Assembly: GCA_951406725.2 (NCBI GenBank) | Contig: OX597818.1 | Coordinates: 33,418,001-33,482,000 of the forward strand | Source: Octopus vulgaris | Lineage: Eukaryota | Length of the DNA stretch: 64,000 nucleotides | Direction of reading: 5' to 3' | Part shown: piece by piece, positions 8,441-64,000 of the stretch | How positions within the stretch are numbered: the stretch's first letter is position 1 | Layout: every line of letters starts with the position of its first letter | The notes under the pieces: model-generated | The model's input: the letters and a program-made list of their open reading frames with translations, nothing else | The model's database searches: none | What the model was told of the DNA's origin: nothing | Program-made: the position numbers and the translations under genes

Positions 8441-9348
8441 AACTCTATTCTTACTTCTTTATTTTTCTTAACTCGAGTATTAAATGTGCATATCCCCTCG
8501 ATTACGTAACACGTTTTCATGTCAACAATTAGATTATTCAGGTTAATGTGCTCTATTCTCCTTTAGCTTTATACAGTTAAGTTACATAATACTTTCACTT
8601 CATCGTTTTCAAGGACATGTATTCTTCTTTCAACAAAATGTTCATAGCTCTTTTCTGTGCATGCAGATCTGAATCTCTCATAAAAATTCCACTGAAGTTT
8701 TGAAAAAAATTAACTATACCTTAAATTTTGTTCTAATTCTAAGCTGTGGACATTCTGAAGCAAAATGAGCCACAATTTTATCATCAGCGTTGCATATTCC
8801 AGGGATCTGTCTTGTTAAGGATGTGGATAGAAAGCAAAGAAGCTGATGATTTAAGGTTGTAATCACAGCAGGTGCATTTGTTTCAATAACAGTCTGCTTA
8901 CAACTATCTGCACCAAGAAACTCGAAAGTATAGAAACTGAGAACGAGAGACGCCCAGCTACAATGCGCTGATCCTCAAAGTTGTTCCCCTGAAAACATCG
9001 TCTGTAGCAATACTAATTTTATTTCTGGAGTTCGCCGGAACGTCATCTAACCATCCGTGACAGACATCAAAGAATAAGAGGCACACAACCTCGAAGCACC
9101 AAACTGATGGACACTACAAAGAAGGCATTCTCTAAATACAAGAGTGGATTAGTTGTGGCTGTAAAGCACTGGATATAATGTTTTGTGATATACATTTCAA
9201 ATTTCTACGCTGTGGCTTCAATTCATGTCATCACCGTTGCATTTTATCCTTTAGGTGTCGATGAATAAACTATCAGTCAAGTATTGGTGTAGATAGTTCG
9301 CATCTTCTCATTCTCCCTTTTGTATTTCTTTCTCATTTTATTTCTTTA

Positions 9349-9752
9349 TTGCCCACAAAGGGCTAAAACACAGAGGGTACAAACAAGGACAGACAAAGGG
9401 ATTAAGTCGATTACATCGACCCCAGTACGTAACTGGTACATAATTTATCGACTCCGAAAGGATGAAAGGCAAAGTCAACCTAGGCGGAATTTGAACTCAG
9501 AACGTAACGGCAGAAAAATACCTATTTCTTTACTATCCACAAGGGGCGAAACACAGAGGACAAACAAGGACAGACAAACGGATTAGCTCGATTATATCGA
9601 CCCCAGTACATAACTGGTACTTATTTAATCGACCCCGAAAGGATGAAAGGCAAACTCGACCACGGCGGAATTTGAACTCAGAACATAGCAGCAGACGAAA
9701 CACCAGTAACCATTTCACCCGGCGTGCTAACATTTTTACCAGCTCGCCGCCC
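9349..9752 (-). mobile_element. tRNA-derived SINE, family B, with tandem partial duplication
   Basis: Minus strand ggcggcgagctgg...ttctgagttcaaattccgcc (B-box-like)...tcatcctttcggggtcgat. The 3' half is present twice. Other copies lie at ~11833-11963, ~12130-12330, 24025-24233 and ~43300-43473. Confidence 0.85.
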
Positions 9753-10213
9753 TTTTTTTTTTTTTATTGGTATATCTTTCTGGCCAGATCTATAGCCTGT
9801 CGCGGTTTACAACGTTTAGAGGCAGTAGATTAAAGCCGGACATTAGAACCCCACAAGTCTCTCTAAATATTTGGCAAGTTAACTGATCATCTTTACAAAG
9901 ATTTGTGTTGAATTGCTAAGTAGTAGCAATCTCACCGGATTTTGTTATACTCGTAATTACTTATACAATTTCATTGCAAGTGAAAGGGATAGGAAATACA
10001 GTTTATGGAGGAAAAATATTTAGAAAATCAAGGGTTGTCACGTTATTAGTAATTAGAAAATTGTGTTTAATATGAAGCTTTATTCACATTCTTACAAAAA
10101 GAAGAAGAAAACAAGCATATTCACTCGCTACGTACATACGTAGGCAGATACACACACACATAGTCTTGCACAAAAAAAAAACACACAAAGATATTCATGT
10201 GATCGTGTGTGTA

Positions 10214-11490: not shown

Positions 11491-13734
11491 TATTTTTCTC
11501 ACTTCTCGAGCGTTAAACTAATACATCTGTTTGTTGCTTACACACCCGTCTTCATCTTTTGTTATTTTTGTAAATGCTCACTATATATATATATATATAT
11601 ATATATAGTAAATTAAACAATTTTTTGGGATGGGGAATTAGATGGTTGGATCTTTAGGGATACGTTTGTTACCACTGTCACCATCATTTCTACCAATGTA
11701 CATGCACATCATCTCTTATAATTGACAAATGTATACGACGAAAATAAGTATGAATTGCTAATGCTATATAAATATTGTATTTTACTCAGCAAAATACTGG
11801 TAATAATGTCTTTTCAAAATGTATGAGTACTTCCGCCGAGGTCAGCTTTTTCTGTTATCCTTTCGGGGTCGATAAATTAAGCACCAGTTGCGTACTGGGG
11901 TCGATCTAATCGACTGGTCCCTCCCCACAAAATTTGGGGCCTTGTGCCTAGAGTAGAAAAGAATATCTATGAGTACAATTTGTGGCTAAAGGCATGTAGT
12001 CTTCTTCGTATTTTCGTGTAGATACTAGCAAAATTAAATTCCGATGTGTTTGAAATGAGGAGAGAGAGTGAGAAAGCGTCACTCACATTTTATTGACGAT
12101 AAATACGTTTGTTATATTGATTTCAAATTTTGGCACAAAACCAGAAATTTTGTGTAAGAAGGTTAGTTGAATACATCGACCCCACTACTTGGCTGATACT
12201 TATTTTATCGACCCCAAAATGGTTGAGGGTAAAGTTGACCCCAGTGAAATTTGAACTCAGAATGTACAGAAGGACGAACTACCGTAGATTACTTTGGCCG
12301 GTGTGTAAACGATTCTTCTGCCTTGCCACCTTATGTTCCTGCTATATTGTTTCCATTTTTATAGAATGTTTGCTGAAAAAGTCTTTGGATCTCTTTTTGT
12401 ATTAGATAAAATAAGTAACAGGGAACTTAAAACAACTGCTTTCTTCACAAAATGTTGTGATCATATACAAAATTCAATAATCAATATTTATTCATTCTTT
12501 CGCTCTAATATGAATAATTCTATTTGAAGATTTCATATAAGTAACTGCGTGAAAAAGCAGTGAATTTGTCACAACCGAAATTCAAAACTCACCGAGATGC
12601 ATAATATCTAGTAAAATGAAAGAGGAACTTCTTTAAGGGTTAATCATTAGTCATGTTTGATACATAGAAAGCTCTACTGAGTAGTTACAGTACAGAAATA
12701 TGCAGATTTACTTCTTTCGTTCCATTCATTAAAACACCACAACGTATATTAATTAAGTAAATGACTAGGAATAATGATGATATACAAGCTGAAAATTTAG
12801 ATGACGTTGCTAGCCAAAATGCATACTAAGCAAGAGAGATGACCTTATTTACAAATTGAACAGAAAATATATATGAAGATTTATACAGGTTCCATATCTA
12901 GAAAATATTATTTTTAACAGATATTTCTCATTGTAGAGACTGACAACAAGTGATTTAATTAACGTTTCAAATGCTATGAGCAAACATTGACCGCGACACT
13001 GTCATACGGATGTCGTACTTCTTTAGTCGGCAAGCATACGTCGCCAGAATTATCCTTTACTTCATACAAATGTAAGATGGAATTGTGATTATCTGTATAA
13101 GATGATCCTACACACATTCTTCTCTCTATCAATGTGTGTGTTCTCCTTGGGAGGAGACATTATCGGGCAGCAGAATATGAAGGATATCATTTCACATCTG
13201 TTATTTGAACTCTTTTTTCAAATCTGGAATATACATTAGAAAAGCAATCTGCATATTAACATGTCTGAATTTAAAACCGCAGACATGTTTTTTATTAACT
13301 AGCTAAACATATATATCTAAAGGAAACCAGGTCATGGGATTAATGAAATCTGCGAAAGTATATATTTGTATATATACAGTGCATGTCCACTATATTTTGC
13401 ATTGTCTATATAATCAAAAACGCTCAATCAATTGATGTTATTGATGTTATGGCTACAGTTTAACTGCATTAATTTCTCTGATAAAAATCGCCTTTTCGCC
13501 AGCAATTTGCCACGGAAGATGTGGATGCAGTCAAATACGAGCCGGCTAAAGAGTCATTAAGAATATCTGTTATAATATTTAAACGAACTAGAGCTCTCAC
13601 AATTAAGCACCTTCGTCTAAGGATTTCTATCAGGTCTTGAACGAAGTAGTATCTAAAACTGGTTTGCTTAAAGTCGAATATACCCAATACAGATTGTTTT
13701 TTCTTTTTTATTAAAACAGAAGGTAAGAGTTTGT

Positions 13735-15741: not shown

Positions 15742-16040
15742 AAAGGTCGCCCTTTTCAAGCCTAGCCAGGCTCATGGGCCCAGTTTCTGTGGCGTATGTG
15801 TTCCCCCCAGCTGGACGGCACGCCAATCCATCGCAGCGTTACTCAAGAAGCAGAAAGAAAAAGTGAGAGAAAGTCGTGATGAAAGAGTACATCAGGGGTC
15901 GCCACCACCCCCTGCTGGAGCCTAGTGGAGCTTCTAAGTGTATTCGCTCAATAAACACACACAACACCAGCTCTGGGAATCGAAACCGCGATCCTCCGAC
16001 CGCGGGTCCGCTGCCCTAACCACTGGGCCATTGCGCCTCC
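15742..16040 (-). mobile_element. tRNA-derived SINE, family C
   Basis: Head ggaggcgcaatggcccagtggttagggcagcgga...ggtttcgattccc with A and B boxes. Other copies lie at 52351-52656, 63111-63413 and partially at ~24400-24600. Confidence 0.85.
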
Positions 16041-20833: not shown

Positions 20834-20939
20834 ATTTCTCTTTTACAAAATCGAGAAATGAATGTGCCAGTCAAATTTTGAGGTTAATAAATCCAGTTAA
20901 ACTCTCCTTAAAATATGTTGTTTTCTGACTATAATAGAA

Positions 20940-22166
20940 ATCAATCAACATCAATTTAAACCAGTGGTCTAGCATATTTTAAGAAATCCGAAGAATTAAA
21001 AATTACATTACAATTAATAAGAGGAATGACCACTAAAGTGGATTCCTAATATGCTAAAGATAGACGTCAAATCGCCTTACCACGAAGAGTGTGTTCTCAA
21101 GAAAAATCTCAACAAAAACGCCAGAATGTAAAAATAATCAAAACAAATGAAAATATACAAGATAAAACGATTACCTACGTATCACCACTTCGTTATTAAC
21201 ACTTGGAAAATGCAAAATGCAAATATCTGTAACTCTTCAGCATAGTCTGTCATATTACAAAACATATTTCACAGGACTATACACACAAACGTTCACCCGA
21301 AAGAAAACTCATGTACAGTTCTGCAAAATATATTTGCGGGTATCTTTCAAATGTCTTCATTTTGGCGCGATGAGGCCGGAAATAACCTTGCAGATAATAA
21401 ATTACCGCAGTTAATTTACCGGTTGGAGAATATTGCTATTTTAAATTAAATAATGAGGCTAAAAATTGATATCAATCAACATCAATTTACATTAGTGACC
21501 TAGCATATTTTTTTTTAAATCCGAAGATTTAAAAATGATATCACAATTAATAAAAGGAATGACCACTAAAGTGGATTCCTATTACATTCTGGCGTTTTTG
21601 CTGAGATTTTCCATGAGAACACACACTTCGCGATTTGACGTCTATCTTTAGCATATTAGGAATCCACTTTAGTGGTCATTCCTCTTATTAATTGTAATAT
21701 AATTTTTAAATCTTCGGATTTAAAAAAAAATATGCTAGACCACTGGTTTAAAATGACGTTAATTGATTGATATCAATTTCTACCCTCAATTATTTAATTT
21801 AAAATAGCAATGTTCTCTAATTGGTAAATTAACTGCGGTAATTTATTATCTGCAGAGTTATTTCCGGCCTCAGCGCGCCAACATGGAGACATTTGAAAGA
21901 TAACCCCAAATACATTTTGCAGAAATGTACATGAGTTTTCTTTCGGGTGAACGTTTCTCTGTATAGTTCTGCGAAATATTTTGAAATGCGACAGAATACA
22001 CTGAGGAGTTACATTTTGCATTATGCATGTGTTAATAACGAAATCATGATACGTAAGTAATCATTTTATTTTGTATAATTTAATTTGTCTTGATTATTTT
22101 TACATTCTGGTGCTTTTGCTGCGGATTTTCTTGAGAACACACTCTTCGAGGTAAGGTGATTTGACA
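20940..22166. mobile_element. ~530-bp unit in partial tandem plus inverted arrangement (PLE pseudo-LTR-like)
   Basis: The unit at 20940-21470 restarts at ~21470-21580, and the reverse complement of ~1.1 units follows at 21581-22166. Confidence 0.8.
21997..22055 (+). ncRNA. Type I HHR with long stem II
   Basis: taca CTGAGGA gtta...taac GAAA tcatga TA cgta, with palindromic stem III ATCATGAT. A decayed mirror copy lies at ~21176-21244 (-). Confidence 0.55.
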
Positions 22167-22307: not shown

Positions 22308-22363
<56 letters not shown>

Positions 22364-22532
22364 TAATAGTTATCTCCATACTTATATGGCAGTCTTATGA
22401 ATATAAGACTAAAGCTGTCGCTGATTAGCTCCAAGAGGCCACCACCTCAAGCTAGCTATTTGACACGCGACCTGCGTCCATTATAAACCTTCGAACAGGG
22501 GAGGTCAGCCGCTTCATCCTGCTAGTCAGACA

Positions 22533-22575
22533 GCTGTAGACATGTTTCAGGGTATTTGCCCTTTATCAATGCAGC
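22533..22575 (-). ncRNA. Minimal HHR, U3:A8 variant (monomer 1)
   Basis: gctgca TTGATAA aggg caaata ccct GAAA catg TC tacagc, with one stem I mismatch. Confidence 0.75.
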
Positions 22576-22897
22576 GTAGTCAGATCCAGCAGGTATCGCT
22601 ACTGACTGTCCCTGTTCGAAGAATCTATTTACCTAGTTTCAGTGGAATACATCTACTTGTTTTCAATAATAGAAATATTAAAATTACTAAGTCTCTCTAA
22701 AGAAGATTACGGCAGCGTTAGTGGAAATTAATAGTTATCGCCATACTTATATGGCAGTCTTATAAATATAAGACTAAAGCTGTCGCTGATTAGCTCCAAG
22801 AGGCCACCGCCTCAAGCTAGCTATTTGACACACAACCTGCGTCCATTATAAACTTTCGAACAGGGGAGGTCAGCCGCTTCATCCTGCCAGTCAGACA

Positions 22898-22940
22898 GCT
22901 GCAGACATGTTTCAGGGTATTTGCCCTTTATCAATGCAGT
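22898..22940 (-). ncRNA. Minimal HHR, U3:A8 variant (monomer 2)
   Basis: ctgca TTGATAA aggg caaata ccct GAAA catg TC tgcag, exactly 365 bp from the first copy. Confidence 0.8.
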
Positions 22941-23132
22941 TTAGTCAGACCCAGCAGGTGTCGCTACTGACTGTCCTGTTCGAAGAATCTATTTACCTAG
23001 TTTCAGTGGAATACATCCACTTGTTTTCAATAATAGAAATATTAAAATTACTAAGTCTCTCTAAAGGAGATTACGGCAGCGTTAATGGAAATTAATAGTC
23101 AGTCAGTTGCGACACCTGCTGGGTCTGACTAC

Positions 23133-23175
23133 GCTGCATTGATAAAGGGCAAATACCCTGAAACATGTCTGCAGC
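23133..23175 (+). ncRNA. Minimal HHR, U3:A8 variant (inverted copy)
   Basis: gctgca TTGATAA aggg caaata ccct GAAA catg TC tgcagc: 6-bp stem I, 4-bp stem II, palindromic stem III ACATGT, GUC triplet. Confidence 0.8.
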
Positions 23176-24024
23176 TGTCTGACTGGCAGGATGAAGCGGC
23201 TGGCCTCCCCTGTTCGAAGGTTTATAATGGACGCAGGTTGTGTGTCAAATAGCTAGCTTGAGGCGGTGGCCTCTTGGAGCTAATCAGCGATAGCTTTAGT
23301 CTTATATTTATAAGACTGCCATATAAGTATGGCGATAACTATTAATTTCCAGTAACGCTGCCGTAATCTCCTTTAGAGAGACTTTGTAATTTTAATATTT
23401 CTATTATATATATATATATATAAATATGCGTGTGTGTGTGTGGGGGGTGTATGTATGTATAAATGCAGTGGATTACAGGAACAATAGCGAGGATCTGTTT
23501 ACATGCTATGCATTCTCTTCGCTCGAGTTTAAATTAAATCATAGCAAAATAGCTACAAACAACAAGAAAAGCTACAATGCGGCTTTTCTTCATTTAAATA
23601 TACCTCATTATTGCGTATAGAAATCAACTATAGAACATACATTTAAATGCATACAAGTAAATGATATTGTCTATTGTCAATCTGAAATGTATAATTGTAT
23701 TGAATAATTAATAATTTCTCTGAAAATTACACAAAATGCTTCGGATATTATGCATAAATGTGACTGACCTTCTTATGACATTCTCTTTCATTTGTATACC
23801 GACAGAATAGACGTGAATCAGTCTCTGTATCTGCCATCGTATATGTTTATCTTATTTGTTAATTTTATGCGTTTAATCTCCATTTTTAGCTCTGATCAAG
23901 CAGATTAATGTCACACAAAAGGATTTCGAGCACGTCCATAAAGTTTCTTGCTGTACCTAATCCATTGTGTTAAGTTATATATATATATATGTGCGTGCGT
24001 GTGTGTGTGTGTGTGTGTGTGCAT

Positions 24025-26255: not shown

Positions 26256-27549
26256 CGAGGGACGTTCAATAAGTAATGCCTCTGACCCACTTGCAATTGT
26301 TTGATCTAGCTGAGATTTTGCATGTGCAATCATTTATATCTCTATAGAGTAAGTGGCAAATTACAGCTCTGAATTAAATGTGGTTTCTGATTTACAGGTG
26401 TTTGAACCGAGTCAAGTATGAAATGGAGCCTGTTGAGTGTCGAGCAGTGATCCGGTTTTTGTATTTGAAAGGACGCACACCACAGGGAGACTTTTGATGA
26501 AATGAAAGTAACTTATGGTGTTGATGCCCCATCATATGACCTTGTAAAACGCTGGCATCGTGAATTCAAACATGGTCGGAACTCTGTGAAAACAGCTCCC
26601 AGATCTGGTCGCCCCCTTCTGCCATTGATGAGGCATCTGTCCGTCAAGTTGAGGCTGCCATTTTGGAAGATCGACGCATAATTATTCGCCAAATAGCCCA
26701 TGAGGTCAAGATTAGTACCGGGTCTGTGGAAACTATCATTCATGACCATTTGCATATGCAAAAGGTGTCTGCCAGATGGATTCCCAGGTTGCTCACACCT
26801 TTCCAGAAGCAAGAACGCGTCGAGTGCTCGAGAGTGAATTTGGAGATGTGCCAAGAAGATGAGTCAAAATTTTTCAAAAGACTGATTACACAGGATGAAA
26901 CCTGGGTCCATCACGATGATCCAGAGACCAAAGCCCAGTCAATGCAGTGGAAGCACCGTGACTCACCCCCTCCAAAGAAGGCAAGGGTGCAGCCCTCCGC
27001 TGGCAAGGTCATGCTCACAGTCTTCTGGAACCAGGACGGAGTAGTGATGACAGATTTCCTGGCAAAAGGGTACCACAATTGCAGGAGCCTATTATGCTTC
27101 ACTTTTCAGGAAATTAAGAGAAGTTATCAAAATCAAGAGGCGGGGCAAGATCCGCAAAGGCATCCTCCTCCTGCAGGACAACGCTCCGGTCCACAACTCG
27201 CTTGTCGCCAGATCAGAAGCACAGGCGTATGGCTATGAACTCCTCCCCATCCCCCCAACCCCATGACCTTGCACCCTCTGATTTTCACCTCTTCCCAATC
27301 ATGAAGTTGTTTTTGAAAGGAAAGCGTTTCCCAGATGATGCAGCCTTGATTATCTGAAATCACGTTGAGGTTGGAGGACCAAGCTGGGTTCTTCTACAAA
27401 AACGGTCTCCAGAGCCGCATCAAACGATGGGAGAAATGCGTACCTCTGGGTGGTTCTTATGTAGAAAAAGCCTAATAACTGTGCCAAGTTTCGTTGCTCT
27501 ACTGCTATGGGAAGTGGGTCAGGGGCATTACTTATTGAACGCCCCGTTG
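26256..27549 (+). mobile_element. Near full-length mariner transposon (~1.3 kb)
   Basis: Left TIR cgagggacgttcaataagtaatgcctctgacccactt follows TA. Right TIR is aagtgggtcaggggcattacttattgaacgcccc. Confidence 0.92.
26423..27475 (+). pseudogene. Frameshifted mariner DD34D transposase
   Basis: MEPVECRAVIRFLYLKG start; WIPRLL; ITQDETW; LLLQDNAPVH; DLAPSDF motifs across several frames. Confidence 0.9.
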
Positions 27550-28729: not shown

Positions 28730-29819
28730 CATGGTGAGGTCACTCTTAGTGCTAATGTGTGATCTAGCACAATCTGTCGCATAGTCGTCGGTGACTTAAC
28801 CGCTAGCCCTAATAAGCCTGTGCTCGGTATGGACGTAAAACCAAATGAGGATCATGATCTCACCTTAGGCAACGGAAAATTTTAAGGTGGAATTAAGACA
28901 CTCATTGTCTTTGTTTAGTTATCTTCGTATATATATGAATGTATCTTTGTGTCTTTATATTTCCCACCACCACCGTCGCTACCACCACCACCACCGTCGC
29001 TACCACCACCACCACCACCAATACGCGACTGGTTTTGGTCTATTTACGACCTCGTAAGTTAACGGTTTATTAAGAAAGCTGAATTCTCATGAACACAAGT
29101 ATACATCTGATGTGGTTAAAGCTTCAAATCCCCATTTCTAGCACAGTTTCCAGTGCATAACTTTTACAATATGGTCGTGTCTCTATTTCTTATATTCTTC
29201 CTGCGCCAAATTGAGGCATTCTGCCACAATATATGCCACTATTATTACTATTACTATTGCATTTACATCATCGTCGTCGTCAACATCGCTCCCTCCATAG
29301 AACAGAGCTAAAACTTATCGATTCTACATTGATGAATACTGATATTGCTACTTTAAAAACAACTGGAACAGTGGAAAATAAAATCTACAAAAGCCTCAAG
29401 TGATCGGATGTTCTTGTGGCTGCCCTATATAGTTTATGAACGACATTTAATTAGCGAAAAGCTGGTATCAGATTCTATTAGTGGAGATACACAAATATTT
29501 GTGTTTGGTAAAAGAATTCAAATTTATAAGTGCAAACACGATACATTTTCAAATACATATTTAGACCGGAGCTAAGAGTGTACTTTAAATTCGAAATGTA
29601 ATATGCTAAATTGATCAGTAAGAAAATATTGTAATTAACCTAATTTGTATTAATCATGGAAAAGGAATATGACCGATTCAGAGAATATTTATTTTCTTTG
29701 AAAGACATCTTATTGGTTTCTGATTTATACATCACTTTAGTTGGAACGAGATGGCAAAATCACGAGTGATGTACTTCATAATTTTACAATGACCTTAATA
29801 ACAGAATAAGATAAAAATG

Positions 29820-30083
29820 ATTGCATCGTGGAAGGTTTTTATAAGCCATTTAAGAAACACACAAAACAGTTAGATTCACTTCAACATTTAAGTTTAATTT
29901 GTCAAAATATTTTCGTCGCTTTGAGACCGCGACCTGTCCACTGACAAAGAAGTTTTGTCAGTGAACAGGTCGCGGTCTTAAAGCGACGAAAATATTTTGA
30001 CAAATTAAATTTTAAAATGTTGAAGTGAATCTAACGGTTTTTGTGTTTCTTAAATGGCTTATAAACACCTTCCACGCTGCAAT
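29820..30083. repeat. Near-perfect fold-back, ~130-bp arms, 5-nt loop
   Basis: 29820-29948 is the reverse complement of 29954-30083 with a few mismatches. Confidence 0.92.
29954..30004 (+). ncRNA. Minimal HHR, G3:C8 swapped variant
   Basis: tttgtca GTGAACA g gtcgc ggtcttaaa gcgac GAAA atat TT tgacaaa: 7-bp stem I, 5-bp stem II, palindromic AATATT. The mirror copy at 29898-29948 (-) has core GTGGACA. Confidence 0.7.
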
Positions 30084-30360
30084 TGTTTTCGTTCCAGCAC
30101 ACGATCTCAGATCAAGTCACTCGCTATGCTAGTACATCTTCGTAAAAATAAAAATGAAAATAAGGAAATATAAAGGTTAAAATTAGATTTATGGCGAGTA
30201 CTAAAAATATACTAAAACAAAACCATGTCTCTGTCTCTTAATGAAGCTGTAAATGTTGGCATGTCGTGCTTCATAAGATATTGTATAAACAAGTCTCTGC
30301 AACTGTGGTATAAGATTATTTCGGAGCATAAAATCCAGTAACGAATGTTTAAACAAACTA

Positions 30361-31266: not shown

Positions 31267-31351
31267 TATTTTTACTTTTATTCTCTTATATCCCATTCCA
31301 TCCTTTCCTTAAATGACTCTATTATTTCCCTATATTTAACTCTCTCACATC

Positions 31352-31399
31352 GTCTCTGATGAAGGGATATCCTTAATATCCCAGAAACAGCTGTAAGAC
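31352..31399 (+). ncRNA. Minimal type I HHR, canonical core
   Basis: gtct CTGATGA a gggatat cctta atatccc a GAAA cagctg TA agac: palindromic stem III ACAGCTGT, GUA triplet. Confidence 0.8.
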
Positions 31400-31609
31400 T
31401 AACTTTCCCTTTATAAATTCCACACAGCCTTGGCTCTGTTCTCTCATTTTATTTAACATATACATGCTCATACAAGACCCGCATTAAACTTGTCATTTGT
31501 GTTATTATCGAATCGAGAGATAAATTACGGTCCTTACATAGCCTTATTTACCACCTTGGGTCTTCTGGATACCAATATTTCTCTATCATATATATTTTTA
31601 TTTTTTTAT

Positions 31610-39333: not shown

Positions 39334-39533
39334 ATACAGGGTAGGTCAAAATCATTTAATTCCAAGATTTATTTATTTTTAACAAGTCAATGAATTTAAT
39401 ACAAGCATATAAAAATGAAGCCTCATGAAAATTGTTCCAACTAAAGTCTTTGTTGAACGACATATGTTTCCATTCGAGTCAATCCAGAATTAAGGATAGT
39501 CTCTCTGTCGTGTGAATTTTGGCTAACTATGTA
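39334..39533 (-). mobile_element. Degenerate Tc1/mariner-type MITE
   Basis: tacagggtaggtcaaaatc / gaattttggctaactatgta form imperfect TIRs with TA ends. Confidence 0.4.
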
Positions 39534-39548
39534 TATATATATATATAT

Positions 39549-39715
39549 AAGGCACAGGAGTGGCTGTGTGGAAGGTAGCTTGCATACCAACCACATGGTT
39601 TCGTGTTCAAGTCCCACTGCGTGGCACCTTGAGCAAGTGCTTCTACTATAGACCCGGGTCGACCAAATCCCTGTGAGTGGATATGGTAGACGGAAACTGA
39701 AAGAAGCTCGTCGTA

Positions 39716-39767
<52 letters not shown>

Positions 39768-39934
39768 TACGACGAGCTTCTTTCAGTTTCCGTCTACCAT
39801 ATCCACTCACAGGGATTTGGTCGACTCGGGTCTATAGTAGAAGCACTTGCTCAAGGTGCCACGCAGTGGGACTTGAACACGAAACCATGTGGTTGGTATG
39901 CAAGCTAACTTCCACACAGCCACTCTTGTGCCTT
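39549..39934. mobile_element. Two SINE family A 5' halves as a palindrome around (TA)n
   Basis: 39549-39716 and its almost exact reverse complement at 39767-39934. Confidence 0.92.
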
Positions 39935-39994
39935 ATATATATATATATATACATATATAGATAAGAAAGTTGGTTTGTGAAAGCACGTGGTTGA

Positions 39995-40526
39995 ATATAT
40001 AGAAAATAGTAAAAAGTCAAAAACTACAGAAGGCTTAAGGTTAAAAAATATATATATTTGCGTCCAATATGTCTGAAGAATATTTAATTTTTTTTTTCCT
40101 TACAATGACATAGTTTAGAAGAAAGACCGGTTTCGCGTTTAGCTTTTCAAATTTCTTGCGACGTTATGTTTATGTTGAATAGAGTTATCGTTATGTTCAT
40201 GTTTGCTCAAGGTGCCACGCAGTGGGAAGGCACAGGAGTGGCTGTGTGGAAGGTAGCTTGCATACCAACCACATGGTTTCGTGTTCAAGTCCCACTGCGT
40301 GGCACCTTGAGCAAACATAAACATAAACATAACGATAACTCTATTCAACATAAACATAACGTCGCAAGAAATTTGAAAAGCTAAACGCGAAACCGGTCTT
40401 TCTTCTAAACTATGTCATTGTAAGGAAAAATTTTTTTAATATTCTTCAGACATATTGACGCAAATATATATATTTTTTAACCTTTAAGCCATCTGTAGTT
40501 TTTCACTTTTTACTATTTTCTATATA
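39995..40526. repeat. Fold-back, ~235-bp arms, with a SINE fragment at the centre
   Basis: Arms at 39995-40227 and 40290-40526. Confidence 0.9.
40366..40404 (+). ncRNA. Very minimal HHR, U3:A8 variant with one extra U
   Basis: aagaaa t TTGAAAA gc taaac gc GAAA ccgg TC tttctt. A mirror copy lies at 40119-40157 (-). Confidence 0.55.
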
Positions 40527-40774
40527 TATATATATCTGTCTTTCATATATATACAAGCATAATCAGGAACTTACCGAACTCGTCTCAACTTCGTTGAATT
40601 CCGAATTCCTCCAACGTTCATATGTCTGTACTTATGTATGTATATATGTATGCACGTATGTATGTACGAACTTTGTGTGCGTGTATATACGTATGTCTGT
40701 ATGTATGAAACTGTGTGTGCTTGCATCTATCTATCTACCTATTTATCTATCTATCTATATATTTATATATATAT

Positions 40775-52350: not shown

Positions 52351-52656
52351 ACGTGATCACGTGACCGACCAGGCTATCATATGTTGCTACACATCGCTGG
52401 TCACAATGCTCTTCGCATTGCTTTAGCCTTCAAATGACGCCACCCCGCTGGCTAAGCGAACAGGCCAACAGAAGAAAGAGTGAGAGAAAGTTGTGGTGAA
52501 AGAGTACAGCAGGGATCGCCACCACCCCCTGCCGGAGACTCGTGGAGCTATAGGTGTTTTCGCTCAATAAACACTCAGAACGCCCAATCTGGGAATCGAA
52601 ACCGCGATCCTACGACCGTGAGTCCGCTGCCCTAACCACTGGGCCATTGCGTCTCC
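52351..52656 (-). mobile_element. SINE family C
   Basis: Same head as 15742-16040. Confidence 0.88.
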
Positions 52657-63110: not shown

Positions 63111-63413
63111 TGGAGGCAGTTTCGATTCCCAGACCGGGCGTTGTGAGTGTTTATTGAGCAAAAACACTTAAAGATCCACGAAGATCTGGCAGGGGGTTGT
63201 GGCGAACCCTGCTGTATTCTTTCACCACGAATTTCTCTCACTCTTTCTTCCTGTTTCTGTTGTATCTGTATTTCACAGTGGTCAGTCTTGTAACGCTGCA
63301 CCTCTCCGAGAACTACGTATCTGTGGAATGCTCAGCACGTCAATTTCAAGAGCAGGCTGTTCTGTTGATTGGATTAACTGGAACCCTCGTCGTCGTAACT
63401 GACGGAGAACCGT
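63111..63413 (+). mobile_element. SINE family C with internal head deletion
   Basis: tggaggca joined to gtttcgattcccagaccgggcgttgtgagtgtttattgagc... Confidence 0.8.
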
Positions 63414-63436
63414 AATATATATATAATTATATATAT

Positions 63437-64000
63437 ATAACATAAGGGACTAAAGCCATCTGAATATGGCTAGGGACAGGGCAGGGTGGTGGGGGTGTTA
63501 CTGTTGCATTTAGCCCCAGGCGAACATCGACGTCACCAGAAAGGCTAGACACCGTCACGGTGTCCTTATCCTGCAAAGGGAGGTAATTCCCCGATGAAGC
63601 GGAAACCACACACGGATCATGGTTTCAAGGTGTATTGCCTATCGTCGGCGTGTGGTAGGCTTCCGCTTCCTCGACGAATTCTCACTCTGCAGGATATTCA
63701 TATATAGATTTTCAAGCAAAATACATTTGCTGATTTCGAAAATCTGTTCGAAAGCAATAATAATTCTCTAAAAGAGATATAGACAGTAACTGCTCGATAA
63801 CATAAGGGACTAAAGCCATCTGAATATGGCTAGGGACAGGGCAGGGTGGTGGGGGTGTTACTGTTGCATTTAGCCCCAGGCGAACATCGACGTCACCAGA
63901 AAGGCTAGACACCGTCACGGTGTCCTTATCCTGCAAAGGGAGGTAATTCCCCGATGAAGCGGAAACCACACACGGACCATGGTTTCAAGGTGTATTGCCT
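63437..64000. mobile_element. 360-bp head-to-tail repeat (retrozyme/pseudo-LTR-like), runs off the window
   Basis: cataagggac at 63441 and 63801; the copies are almost identical over ~200 bp; starts after (TA)n. Confidence 0.9.
63605..63656 (-). ncRNA. Minimal HHR, U4C variant
   Basis: cacacg CCGACGA t agg caataca cct t GAAA ccatg(a) TC cgtgtg. The second copy (63965-64000, truncated) has the perfect palindrome ACCATGGT and a GUC triplet. Confidence 0.75.

What the first reader, a model, noticed from the sequence alone, without database searches (positions are those of the whole stretch)
63437..64000. Second tandem family: 360-nt monomer, U4C hammerhead, long rod-like fold
Seen: exact 360-bp period. 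The minus-strand HHR has core CCGACGA and palindromic ACCATGGT, and sits at the tip of nested complementary segments (gaagcggaa/ttccgcttc; atcctgcaaag/ctctgcaggat). Predicted cuts at 63975/63974 and 63615/63614 give a 360-nt product. Inference: a highly structured, circRNA-forming retrozyme-like unit, recently amplified because the copies are nearly identical.
Basis: partly seen in the sequence, partly recalled or inferred. Interest (0 to 1): 0.78.

Follow-up and report, generated by a model that had tools for sequence, protein, structure and literature searches.

The report
High-copy retrozyme with variant hammerhead core
A 360-base non-coding unit, repeated head to tail beside a TA run in an animal-like genome, carries a hammerhead self-cutting-RNA motif with one normally fixed letter changed, and is likely a small parasitic retroelement (a retrozyme, a known kind) that a Penelope-type enzyme probably copies to new sites; its self-cutting and RNA circles are predicted, not shown.

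Summary
The 360-bp period is real: 203 of 204 aligned bases match, and 1.57 units are visible before the window ends. The minus strand holds a type I hammerhead with core CCGACGA (U4C), a U-U pair at the base of helix II and a cut predicted at 63615/63614. Two corrections: the only complete motif has the palindrome broken (ACCATGAT; ACCATGGT is the family form in all four runs laid), and only about 130 of 360 nt form a rod. The unit is not a local accident: three runs assemble it as one closed 390-letter contig, and a DNA-like run holds it at very high depth. C4 is the family-wide form. A second family in the window (22360-23407) is 54% identical and colinear. Both families end at (TA)n 178-179 nt downstream of the cut site, after the same hairpin, and the second shows the inverted copy and 59-nt tail typical of Penelope-like insertion. 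Verdict: a non-LTR retrozyme, probably mobilised by a Penelope enzyme that primes inside the unit. Cleavage, transcription and circles are untested, and the variant core may cut poorly. Known kind, modest new variant.

The parts
63437..63796 (-). Complete 360-nt monomer (RNA sense is the minus strand); its RNA-sense 3' end abuts the TA run with 3-4 shared letters
   Evidence: whole-unit 390-letter contigs in runs X1, X6, X15
63797..64000 (-). Second, partial copy, cut by the window end; 203 of 204 identical to copy 1
63605..63660 (-). Type I hammerhead: closing helix, loop 1 (UAC opposite U), helix I 63654-63649 with 63614-63609, core CCGACGA 63648-63642 (U4C), U-U plus 3-bp helix II with 7-nt loop, GAAA, helix III ACCATGAT (palindrome broken in this copy), H17 at 63615; cut predicted at 63615/63614
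63976..63983 (-). Intact palindrome ACCATGGT of copy 2 (family form); could pair with a second copy as an 8-bp helix III; cut predicted at 63975/63974
   Evidence: duplex -11.2 kcal/mol; -7.7 with the copy-1 form; row 63617
63567..63696 (-). Predicted rod of about 42 bp that carries the ribozyme at its tip
63454..63471 (-). Hairpin (GCCAT stem, 6-nt loop) shared with family 1, 15-18 nt before the insertion end; candidate signal for the reverse transcriptase (inferred)
   Evidence: mean pairing probability 0.94
63765..63777 (-). Small hairpin (TCTCT-TTT-AGAGA) similar to one in family 1, where it lies within the 59-nt tail
63414..63440 (.). TA-rich run at the insertion end, likely the target site
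22360..23407 (.). Homologous family 1: two direct 365-nt units on the minus strand (22360-23099) joined head to head to an inverted truncated copy (23100-23407) that ends 59 nt further (tail); TA runs on both sides; hammerhead core TTGATAA (U3-A8), palindrome ACATGT

Best explanation
The 360-nt tandem unit carries a type I hammerhead motif and ends in a TA run, and is likely a non-LTR retrozyme: its multimeric transcript would be cut, probably slowly and as a dimer, into 360-nt monomers that a host ligase would likely close into circles, and a Penelope-type enzyme would likely copy it into new TA sites starting inside the unit. Shown: the period, the motif, the predicted fold, the abundance, and an insertion end 175-178 nt downstream of the cut site rather than at it. 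Inferred steps: (1) read-through or internal transcription of the array; (2) two copies pair through ACCATGGT to form helix III and cleave after C17, at a reduced rate because of C4 and the U-U pair; (3) RtcB-type ligation, as shown for mussel and axolotl retrozymes; (4) the Penelope reverse transcriptase-endonuclease nicks TA-rich DNA, binds the branched half of the RNA near the shared hairpin, primes there and copies more than one unit, which gives head-to-tail arrays. I put 0.85 on a non-autonomous, Penelope-mobilised element and about 0.6 on the whole route including cleavage and circles.
For: Motif beyond chance: 0 of 5000 unit shuffles, 1 of 60 window shuffles. Hammerhead helices are kept between the two families: 57 of 60 cells paired, 8 of 15 pairs changed on both sides, 5 of 6 in helix I. 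The families are colinear, 194 of 360 identical, score 136 against 70 and 84 in two shuffle sets, 0 of 500 each. The RNA-sense 3' ends lie 178 nt (63437) and 179 nt (22360) after the cut, at TA runs; family 1 has an inverted truncated copy ending 59 nt further. This matches the PLE layout in PMC8557442 section 6 and the two internal priming sites on AT-rich targets in PMC11167929. 20 of 24 listed runs, 10 studies and 4 organism codes hold at least half of the sampled words. X1, X6 and X15 each give one 390-letter contig (360+30) that wraps round the unit. X5 gives summed depth 1.6e5-1.2e6 over bins inside the unit, against 45-61 for six single contigs with neighbouring flanks and 11 in the leftmost bin (the tool warns this is no copy number). 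Size and GC fit the definition in PMC7229834: 170-400 nt, under 50% GC, mussel 350-390 bp; axolotl HHR_Amex2 also has U-U at the base of helix II and cleaves better as a dimer. U4C and U10.1-U11.1 are each reported as tolerated in PMC3088659.
Against: No cleavage, transcript or circle was observed. U4C 'considerably decreases activity in vitro' (PMC3088659), and here it is combined with U-U. The catalytic fold lies 7-9 kcal/mol above the predicted minimum, with helix II probability 0.05-0.07 and helix III 0 in the monomer circle (the model ignores core and loop-loop energy). The one complete copy has a broken palindrome. In a purified PLE, ribozyme mutants still inserted and uncut RNA was the main template; 8 of 9 Xenopus dimers did not cleave in vitro. 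Variants within the family do not favour the fold: of 12 substitutions 3 are unpaired, 4 keep a pair, 5 break one. Covariation rests on two independent families and a structure I drew from them. Rfam finds no hammerhead. The right end and the autonomous partner were not seen, and the inverted copy and tail come from family 1 only.
Confidence: 0.6

Rival explanations
1. A Penelope-mobilised non-autonomous unit whose hammerhead is weak or dormant: uncut multimeric transcripts, not circles, are the template for internally primed copying, and C4 hitch-hiked in a successful master copy.
For: U4C plus U-U plus a sequestered core in the predicted fold. Insertion ends are far from the cut site. PAc ribozyme mutants insert normally. 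8 of 9 Xenopus dimers were inactive. A young family is uniform almost everywhere, so lack of variation at position 4 does not prove selection.
Against: All other core letters, loop 1 and the helices are intact and covary with family 1 across 46% divergence, which a long-dead motif would not keep. The rod presents the motif at its tip. The palindrome is intact in the family form.
Confidence: 0.28
2. The repeats are the terminal repeats (pLTRs) of an autonomous Penelope-like element whose reading frame lies beyond the window end.
For: The window stops inside copy 2; no genome is held. PLE ends carry hammerheads, tandem and inverted copies and tails, and retrozymes match pLTRs in Xenopus.
Against: Three runs assemble the unit as an unbranched closed 360 cycle. 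Family 1 is complete between two TA runs without a coding part. All six frames of the circle have stops; the longest, 90 aa, hits only three unrelated repetitive proteins. The hammerhead has a 6-bp helix I and short helix II, unlike minimal PLE motifs.
Confidence: 0.08
3. A local duplication or DNA-level satellite; the hammerhead likeness and fold are incidental.
For: Only 1.57 units are visible, and strong folding is common in this window: 8 of 26 controls at z of -4 or lower.
Against: Very high depth and whole-unit contigs in other studies and organism codes; motif beyond chance; a homologous family with the same ends and compensatory changes.
Confidence: 0.04

Closest known systems
Metazoan non-LTR retrozymes (Cervera and de la Pena 2020, PMC7229834; parts 1-4 of 6 of the text read, supplement unreadable)
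   Same: Tandem non-coding monomer of 360 nt, under 50% GC, one type I hammerhead per unit, self-paired fold; mussel units are 350-390 bp; axolotl HHR_Amex2 (350 bp) has the same U-U at the base of helix II.
   Different: Core has C at position 4 as the family form; expression, cleavage and circles were shown for coral, mussel and axolotl and are untested here; the core is paired away in the predicted minimum fold, as noted for some mussel circles only.
Penelope-like elements and their pLTR hammerheads (PMC4209133 parts 1-2 read; PMC8557442 passages and section 6; PMC11167929 parts 1-2)
   Same: TA-rich target, tandem plus inverted truncated copies and a tail (seen in family 1), 3' end downstream of the ribozyme cut, palindromic helix III, U3-A8 core variant in family 1.
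   Different: No RT-endonuclease frame; hammerhead is of canonical rather than minimal proportions; end lies 175-179 nt after the cut against about 85-92 nt in PAc (cut at +26, priming at +111-118); tail 59 nt against 30-40.
Vertebrate retrozymes as non-autonomous PLE derivatives (Li, Clavereau and Pollet, bioRxiv 10.64898/2026.07.22.740005; parts 1-3 of 5 read)
   Same: Tandem hammerhead units linked to PLEs; families of similar length.
   Different: That link rests on co-occurrence and pLTR similarity, mainly in Xenopus; here it rests on insertion-end anatomy in two families of an invertebrate-like genome, and no parent PLE was identified.
Natural hammerhead core variants U4C and U10.1-U11.1 (Perreault et al. 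2011, PMC3088659; passages and section 8)
   Same: Both changes are recorded as compatible with some activity.
   Different: U4C is cited there for a viroid variant; here both changes sit together in an abundant genomic family.

Membership tests
Metazoan non-LTR retrozyme | Head-to-tail monomers of about 150-450 bp, GC under 50% | tested here: met
   360-bp period, 46% GC; closed 390-letter contigs in 3 of 4 runs
Metazoan non-LTR retrozyme | Type I hammerhead in each unit | tested here: met
   Complete in copy 1 with variant core; 3' half present in copy 2; covered by whole-unit contigs. No Rfam match
Metazoan non-LTR retrozyme | No protein coding | tested here: met
   Stops in all six frames of the circle; 90-aa frame has no Pfam family and only spurious hits
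Metazoan non-LTR retrozyme | Multiple genomic copies | tested here: met
   Summed depth 1.6e5-1.2e6 in DNA-like run X5 against 45-61 for single flank-bearing contigs; number and dispersal not counted, no genome held
Metazoan non-LTR retrozyme | Stable self-paired monomer fold | tested here: inconclusive
   z -5.8, 0 of 150 shuffles, but 6 of 26 local controls are stronger and only the 130-nt rod carries the signal
Metazoan non-LTR retrozyme | Self-cleavage to monomers | not testable with these tools
   Needs a transcription assay; U4C and U-U predict reduced activity
Metazoan non-LTR retrozyme | Expressed as linear and circular RNA | not testable with these tools
   Only contigs could be laid; a closed contig does not separate an RNA circle from a DNA array
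Canonical hammerhead core | C3 U4 G5 A6 N7 G8 A9, G12 A13 A14, A15.1-U16.1, H17, G10.1-C11.1 | tested here: not met
   C at position 4 and U-U at 10.1-11.1; the rest conforms. No variant at position 4 reached 3% in any of 4 runs, while N7 varies C/U
Autonomous Penelope-like element | RT plus GIY-YIG reading frame between pLTRs | tested here: inconclusive
   None in the unit, nor in 140 of 287 candidate frames of the window scanned; sequence beyond 64000 not available
Penelope-type mobilisation | 3' end at an AT-rich target, internal to the template; inverted copy; tail | tested here: met
   3' end at TA in both families; inverted copy and 59-nt tail seen in family 1 only; far end of this element is outside the window
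Plant LTR retrozyme | Type III hammerhead in LTRs with PBS and PPT | tested here: not met
   Motif is type I in a tandem unit; PBS and PPT were not searched for

The most novel reading that the evidence does not exclude
An abundant animal retrozyme family runs on a non-canonical, attenuated hammerhead (C4 plus U-U) that standard descriptors and Rfam miss, and two 54%-identical families reveal a conserved priming address: a hairpin at the pole of the circle opposite the ribozyme, 175-179 nt from the cut, where a Penelope enzyme starts rolling-circle copying into TA runs. That would give animal retrozymes the cis-signal that a 2020 review says they lack.
Probability: 0.35. Interest if true: 0.62.

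Novelty: new variant of a known kind. Interest (0 to 1): 0.42.

Why it matters
The class is known, so the element itself is no surprise. Two details are useful. First, how animal retrozymes are primed and by which enzyme is open: PMC7761336 (passages) says their repeats show no conserved motif pointing to a partner. Here two diverged families end at the same distance from the cut, after the same hairpin, with Penelope-type ends, which names a site and a signal to test. Second, a family-wide C4 core means that searches built on CUGANGA undercount such elements, and it offers a natural test of whether an attenuated ribozyme is favoured or simply dispensable.

Tried and rejected
Extending the window: no genome is held, so monomer number and the far end are unknown. 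Exact-pattern scans for relatives found nothing: metagenome contigs twice, viral contigs once. Rfam: 0 matches at gathering score in the window; only miRNA-like and other chance matches by E-value. Sequencing runs: no RNA holder listed; X1 and X6 are only guessed to be RNA. 4 of 24 listed runs were laid. The joint tables were empty, the TA run was skipped by the tool and 182 loose ends were not shown, so other insertion flanks were not seen. Depth differences along the unit in X5 were not used, since contig depth cannot rank parts. X15 (organism C) laid only the unit and had no cover over the neighbouring repeat; this could be trace DNA, filtering or another host, and was not resolved. The 90-aa open frame: 3 hits among 1.84 billion proteins, all repetitive and unrelated. 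Pfam on 140 of 287 frames: one transposase fragment and three sub-threshold hits, no RT. The bacterial promoter scan gave chance-level counts and does not suit this organism; no tRNA genes. The whole-genome repeat finder was swamped by microsatellites. One constrained fold (helix III open) failed numerically and was ignored. Folding z-score was rejected as stand-alone evidence. Earlier-findings look-ups by sequence, by place and by one word set returned nothing. Literature: searches listed no paper describing this family or a U4C retrozyme. The supplement of PMC7229834 could not be read and the 2017 paper on dimeric PLE hammerhead variants is not held; either may already list such cores. PMC6962438 passages report 235 Hammerhead_1 matches in giant squid without describing repeats.

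Full report
Setting. The window is AT-rich (GC 0.29-0.41), full of microsatellites and of interspersed and inverted repeats. The only Pfam match above cut-off in 140 of 287 candidate frames is a transposase fragment at 26564-27235. It looks like animal non-coding DNA. The short interspersed repeats remind me of octopus SINEs; that label is recalled and comes from no call. No genome is held.

Observation. Positions 63437-63640 match 63797-64000 at offset 360 with one mismatch, at 63617, so 1.57 units are visible. On the minus strand a descriptor scan finds one complete hammerhead in the element: helix I of 6 bp, CCGACGA from 63648, a U-U pair and 3 bp of helix II around a 7-nt loop, GAAA, and C17 at 63615. 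The same descriptor hit 1 of 60 shuffled windows and 0 of 5000 shuffled units. Rfam does not recognise the motif.

Fold. As a circle the unit folds at -116.8 kcal/mol against -83.7 (sd 5.7), 0 of 150 shuffles as good; the opposite strand also scores z -4.35. About 42 bp form a rod that carries the ribozyme; the rest is branched. The 130-nt rod scores z -8.3, the other 230 nt z -2.3, and 6 of 26 control stretches of the window beat -5.8, so the score is weak evidence by itself. The catalytic fold is 7.1 (copy 1) or 8.8 kcal/mol (permuted circle with the intact palindrome) above the minimum, with helix III absent in the monomer. Two intact palindromes pair at -11.2 kcal/mol, a mixed pair at -7.7. 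This fits the dimer model in PMC4209133, though the energy model omits core and loop-loop contacts.

Copies elsewhere. 20 of 24 listed runs, from 10 studies and 4 organism codes, hold at least half of the 46 sampled words. I laid 4 runs on 63260-63800. X1, X6 and X15 (three studies, organisms A, B, C) each give one 390-letter contig over the unit; X15 shows it in two pieces overlapping by 30 letters, which is how a closed 360 cycle assembles (my reading). They differ from the window at 2, 5 and 8 places. A closed cycle comes from a tandem array or from a circle alike, and the RNA label of X1 and X6 is a guess. X5, DNA-like, gives summed depth 1.6e5-1.2e6 in the bins inside the unit, against 45-61 for six listed contigs of the neighbouring repeat; the tool warns this is no copy number, so I take it only as 'very abundant'. 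All four runs have C at 63617, so the intact palindrome is the family form and copy 1 carries a private change or an error. Position 7 varies (C or U; 59% U in X5). No row appears for position 4 at the 3% threshold although all four runs cover it, so C4 is the family form. This does not show selection: only 12 places in the unit vary. Of 12 substitutions other than 63617, 3 are unpaired, 4 keep a pair and 5 break one.

The first family. At 22360-23407 lie two direct 365-nt units on the minus strand (96% alike), then an inverted truncated copy, between two TA runs. It has a hammerhead with core TTGATAA, the U3-A8 covariant described in PMC4209133 and PMC3088659. The two families are colinear, 194 of 360 identical, far above shuffles (0 of 500, twice) and rotations. 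Their hammerheads align letter for letter: 57 of 60 cells pair and 8 of 15 pairs change on both sides. This rests on two independent sequences and a structure drawn from them, but 5 double changes in 6 helix I pairs are hard to get by drift. Both have UAC opposite U in loop 1 and a CAA-led loop 2; by recall this resembles canonical loop-loop hammerheads, which I did not test.

Insertion ends. The RNA-sense 3' end of our element is at 63437-63440, 175-178 nt after the cut. In family 1 it is at 22360, 179 nt after the cut at 22539 (read and by period). The inverted copy passes the equivalent point at 23348 and stops 59 nt further, at 23407. Both families end 15-18 nt after the same GCCAT hairpin. 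PMC8557442 describes tandem and inverted copies, 30-40 bp tails and TA targets as PLE features. PMC11167929 shows that a purified PLE nicks AT-rich DNA on both strands and primes at two internal sites downstream of its hammerhead, which explains the tail. The ends therefore point to Penelope-type internal priming rather than priming at the ribozyme-cut end.

Mechanism. Most likely: transcription of the array, dimer-assisted and probably slow cleavage, RtcB-type ligation as shown for mussel and axolotl, then Penelope-driven copying of more than one unit into TA runs. The layout, motif and ends are shown; transcription, cleavage, ligation and the enzyme are inferred. The main rival keeps the Penelope step but uses uncut multimers: U4C lowers activity in vitro, PAc inserts without cleavage, and 8 of 9 Xenopus dimers did not cut. 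A pLTR of an unseen autonomous element is less likely: the cycle is closed in three runs, family 1 is complete without coding, and the longest frame has only spurious hits.

Comparison and novelty. It works like, and by sequence features belongs to, the metazoan non-LTR retrozymes of PMC7229834; the biochemical criteria could not be tested. U-U at the base of helix II is known from axolotl HHR_Amex2 and U4C from a viroid variant. Searches listed no paper on this family or on a U4C retrozyme; a supplement and one key paper could not be read and may bear on that. Earlier unchecked notes of this scan describe a sea-squirt retrozyme and a TA-targeting Penelope-type tandem unit; they are leads, not support. 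Verdict: new variant of a known kind, interest 0.42.

Noticed in passing
window 22360-23407: Homologous 365-nt hammerhead family (core TTGATAA, palindrome ACATGT), a complete insertion with two direct units, an inverted copy and a 59-nt tail between TA runs; Rfam misses its hammerhead too.
   Followed up: yes
window 31345-31405, + strand: Lone minimal-type hammerhead: CTGATGA at 31356, extra A, 7-bp helix II, palindromic ACAGCTGT, 4-bp helix I, about 75 nt after a TA run; proportions match PLE pLTR motifs, possibly a truncated PLE end. Such hits arose in 7 of 60 shuffled windows.
   Followed up: partly
window 63116-63411: Interspersed repeat directly left of the TA run, with copies at 15846-15989 and 52467-52605 and very high depth over 63335-63411; SINE-like by recall.
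   Followed up: no
window 26564-27235, + strand: Transposase_1 (PF01359) fragment, E 1.4e-13, with a 34-bp inverted pair at 26259-26292 and 27512-27545; likely a mariner-type element.
   Followed up: no
window 20933-22165, 29814-30089, 39528-39955, 39995-40527: Several long near-perfect inverted-repeat (foldback or MITE-like) elements; they probably account for some of the strongly folding controls.
   Followed up: no
window 9339-9754: 181-nt tandem pair belonging to an interspersed repeat with copies near 11831, 12165, 24033 and 43312; no hammerhead hit.
   Followed up: no
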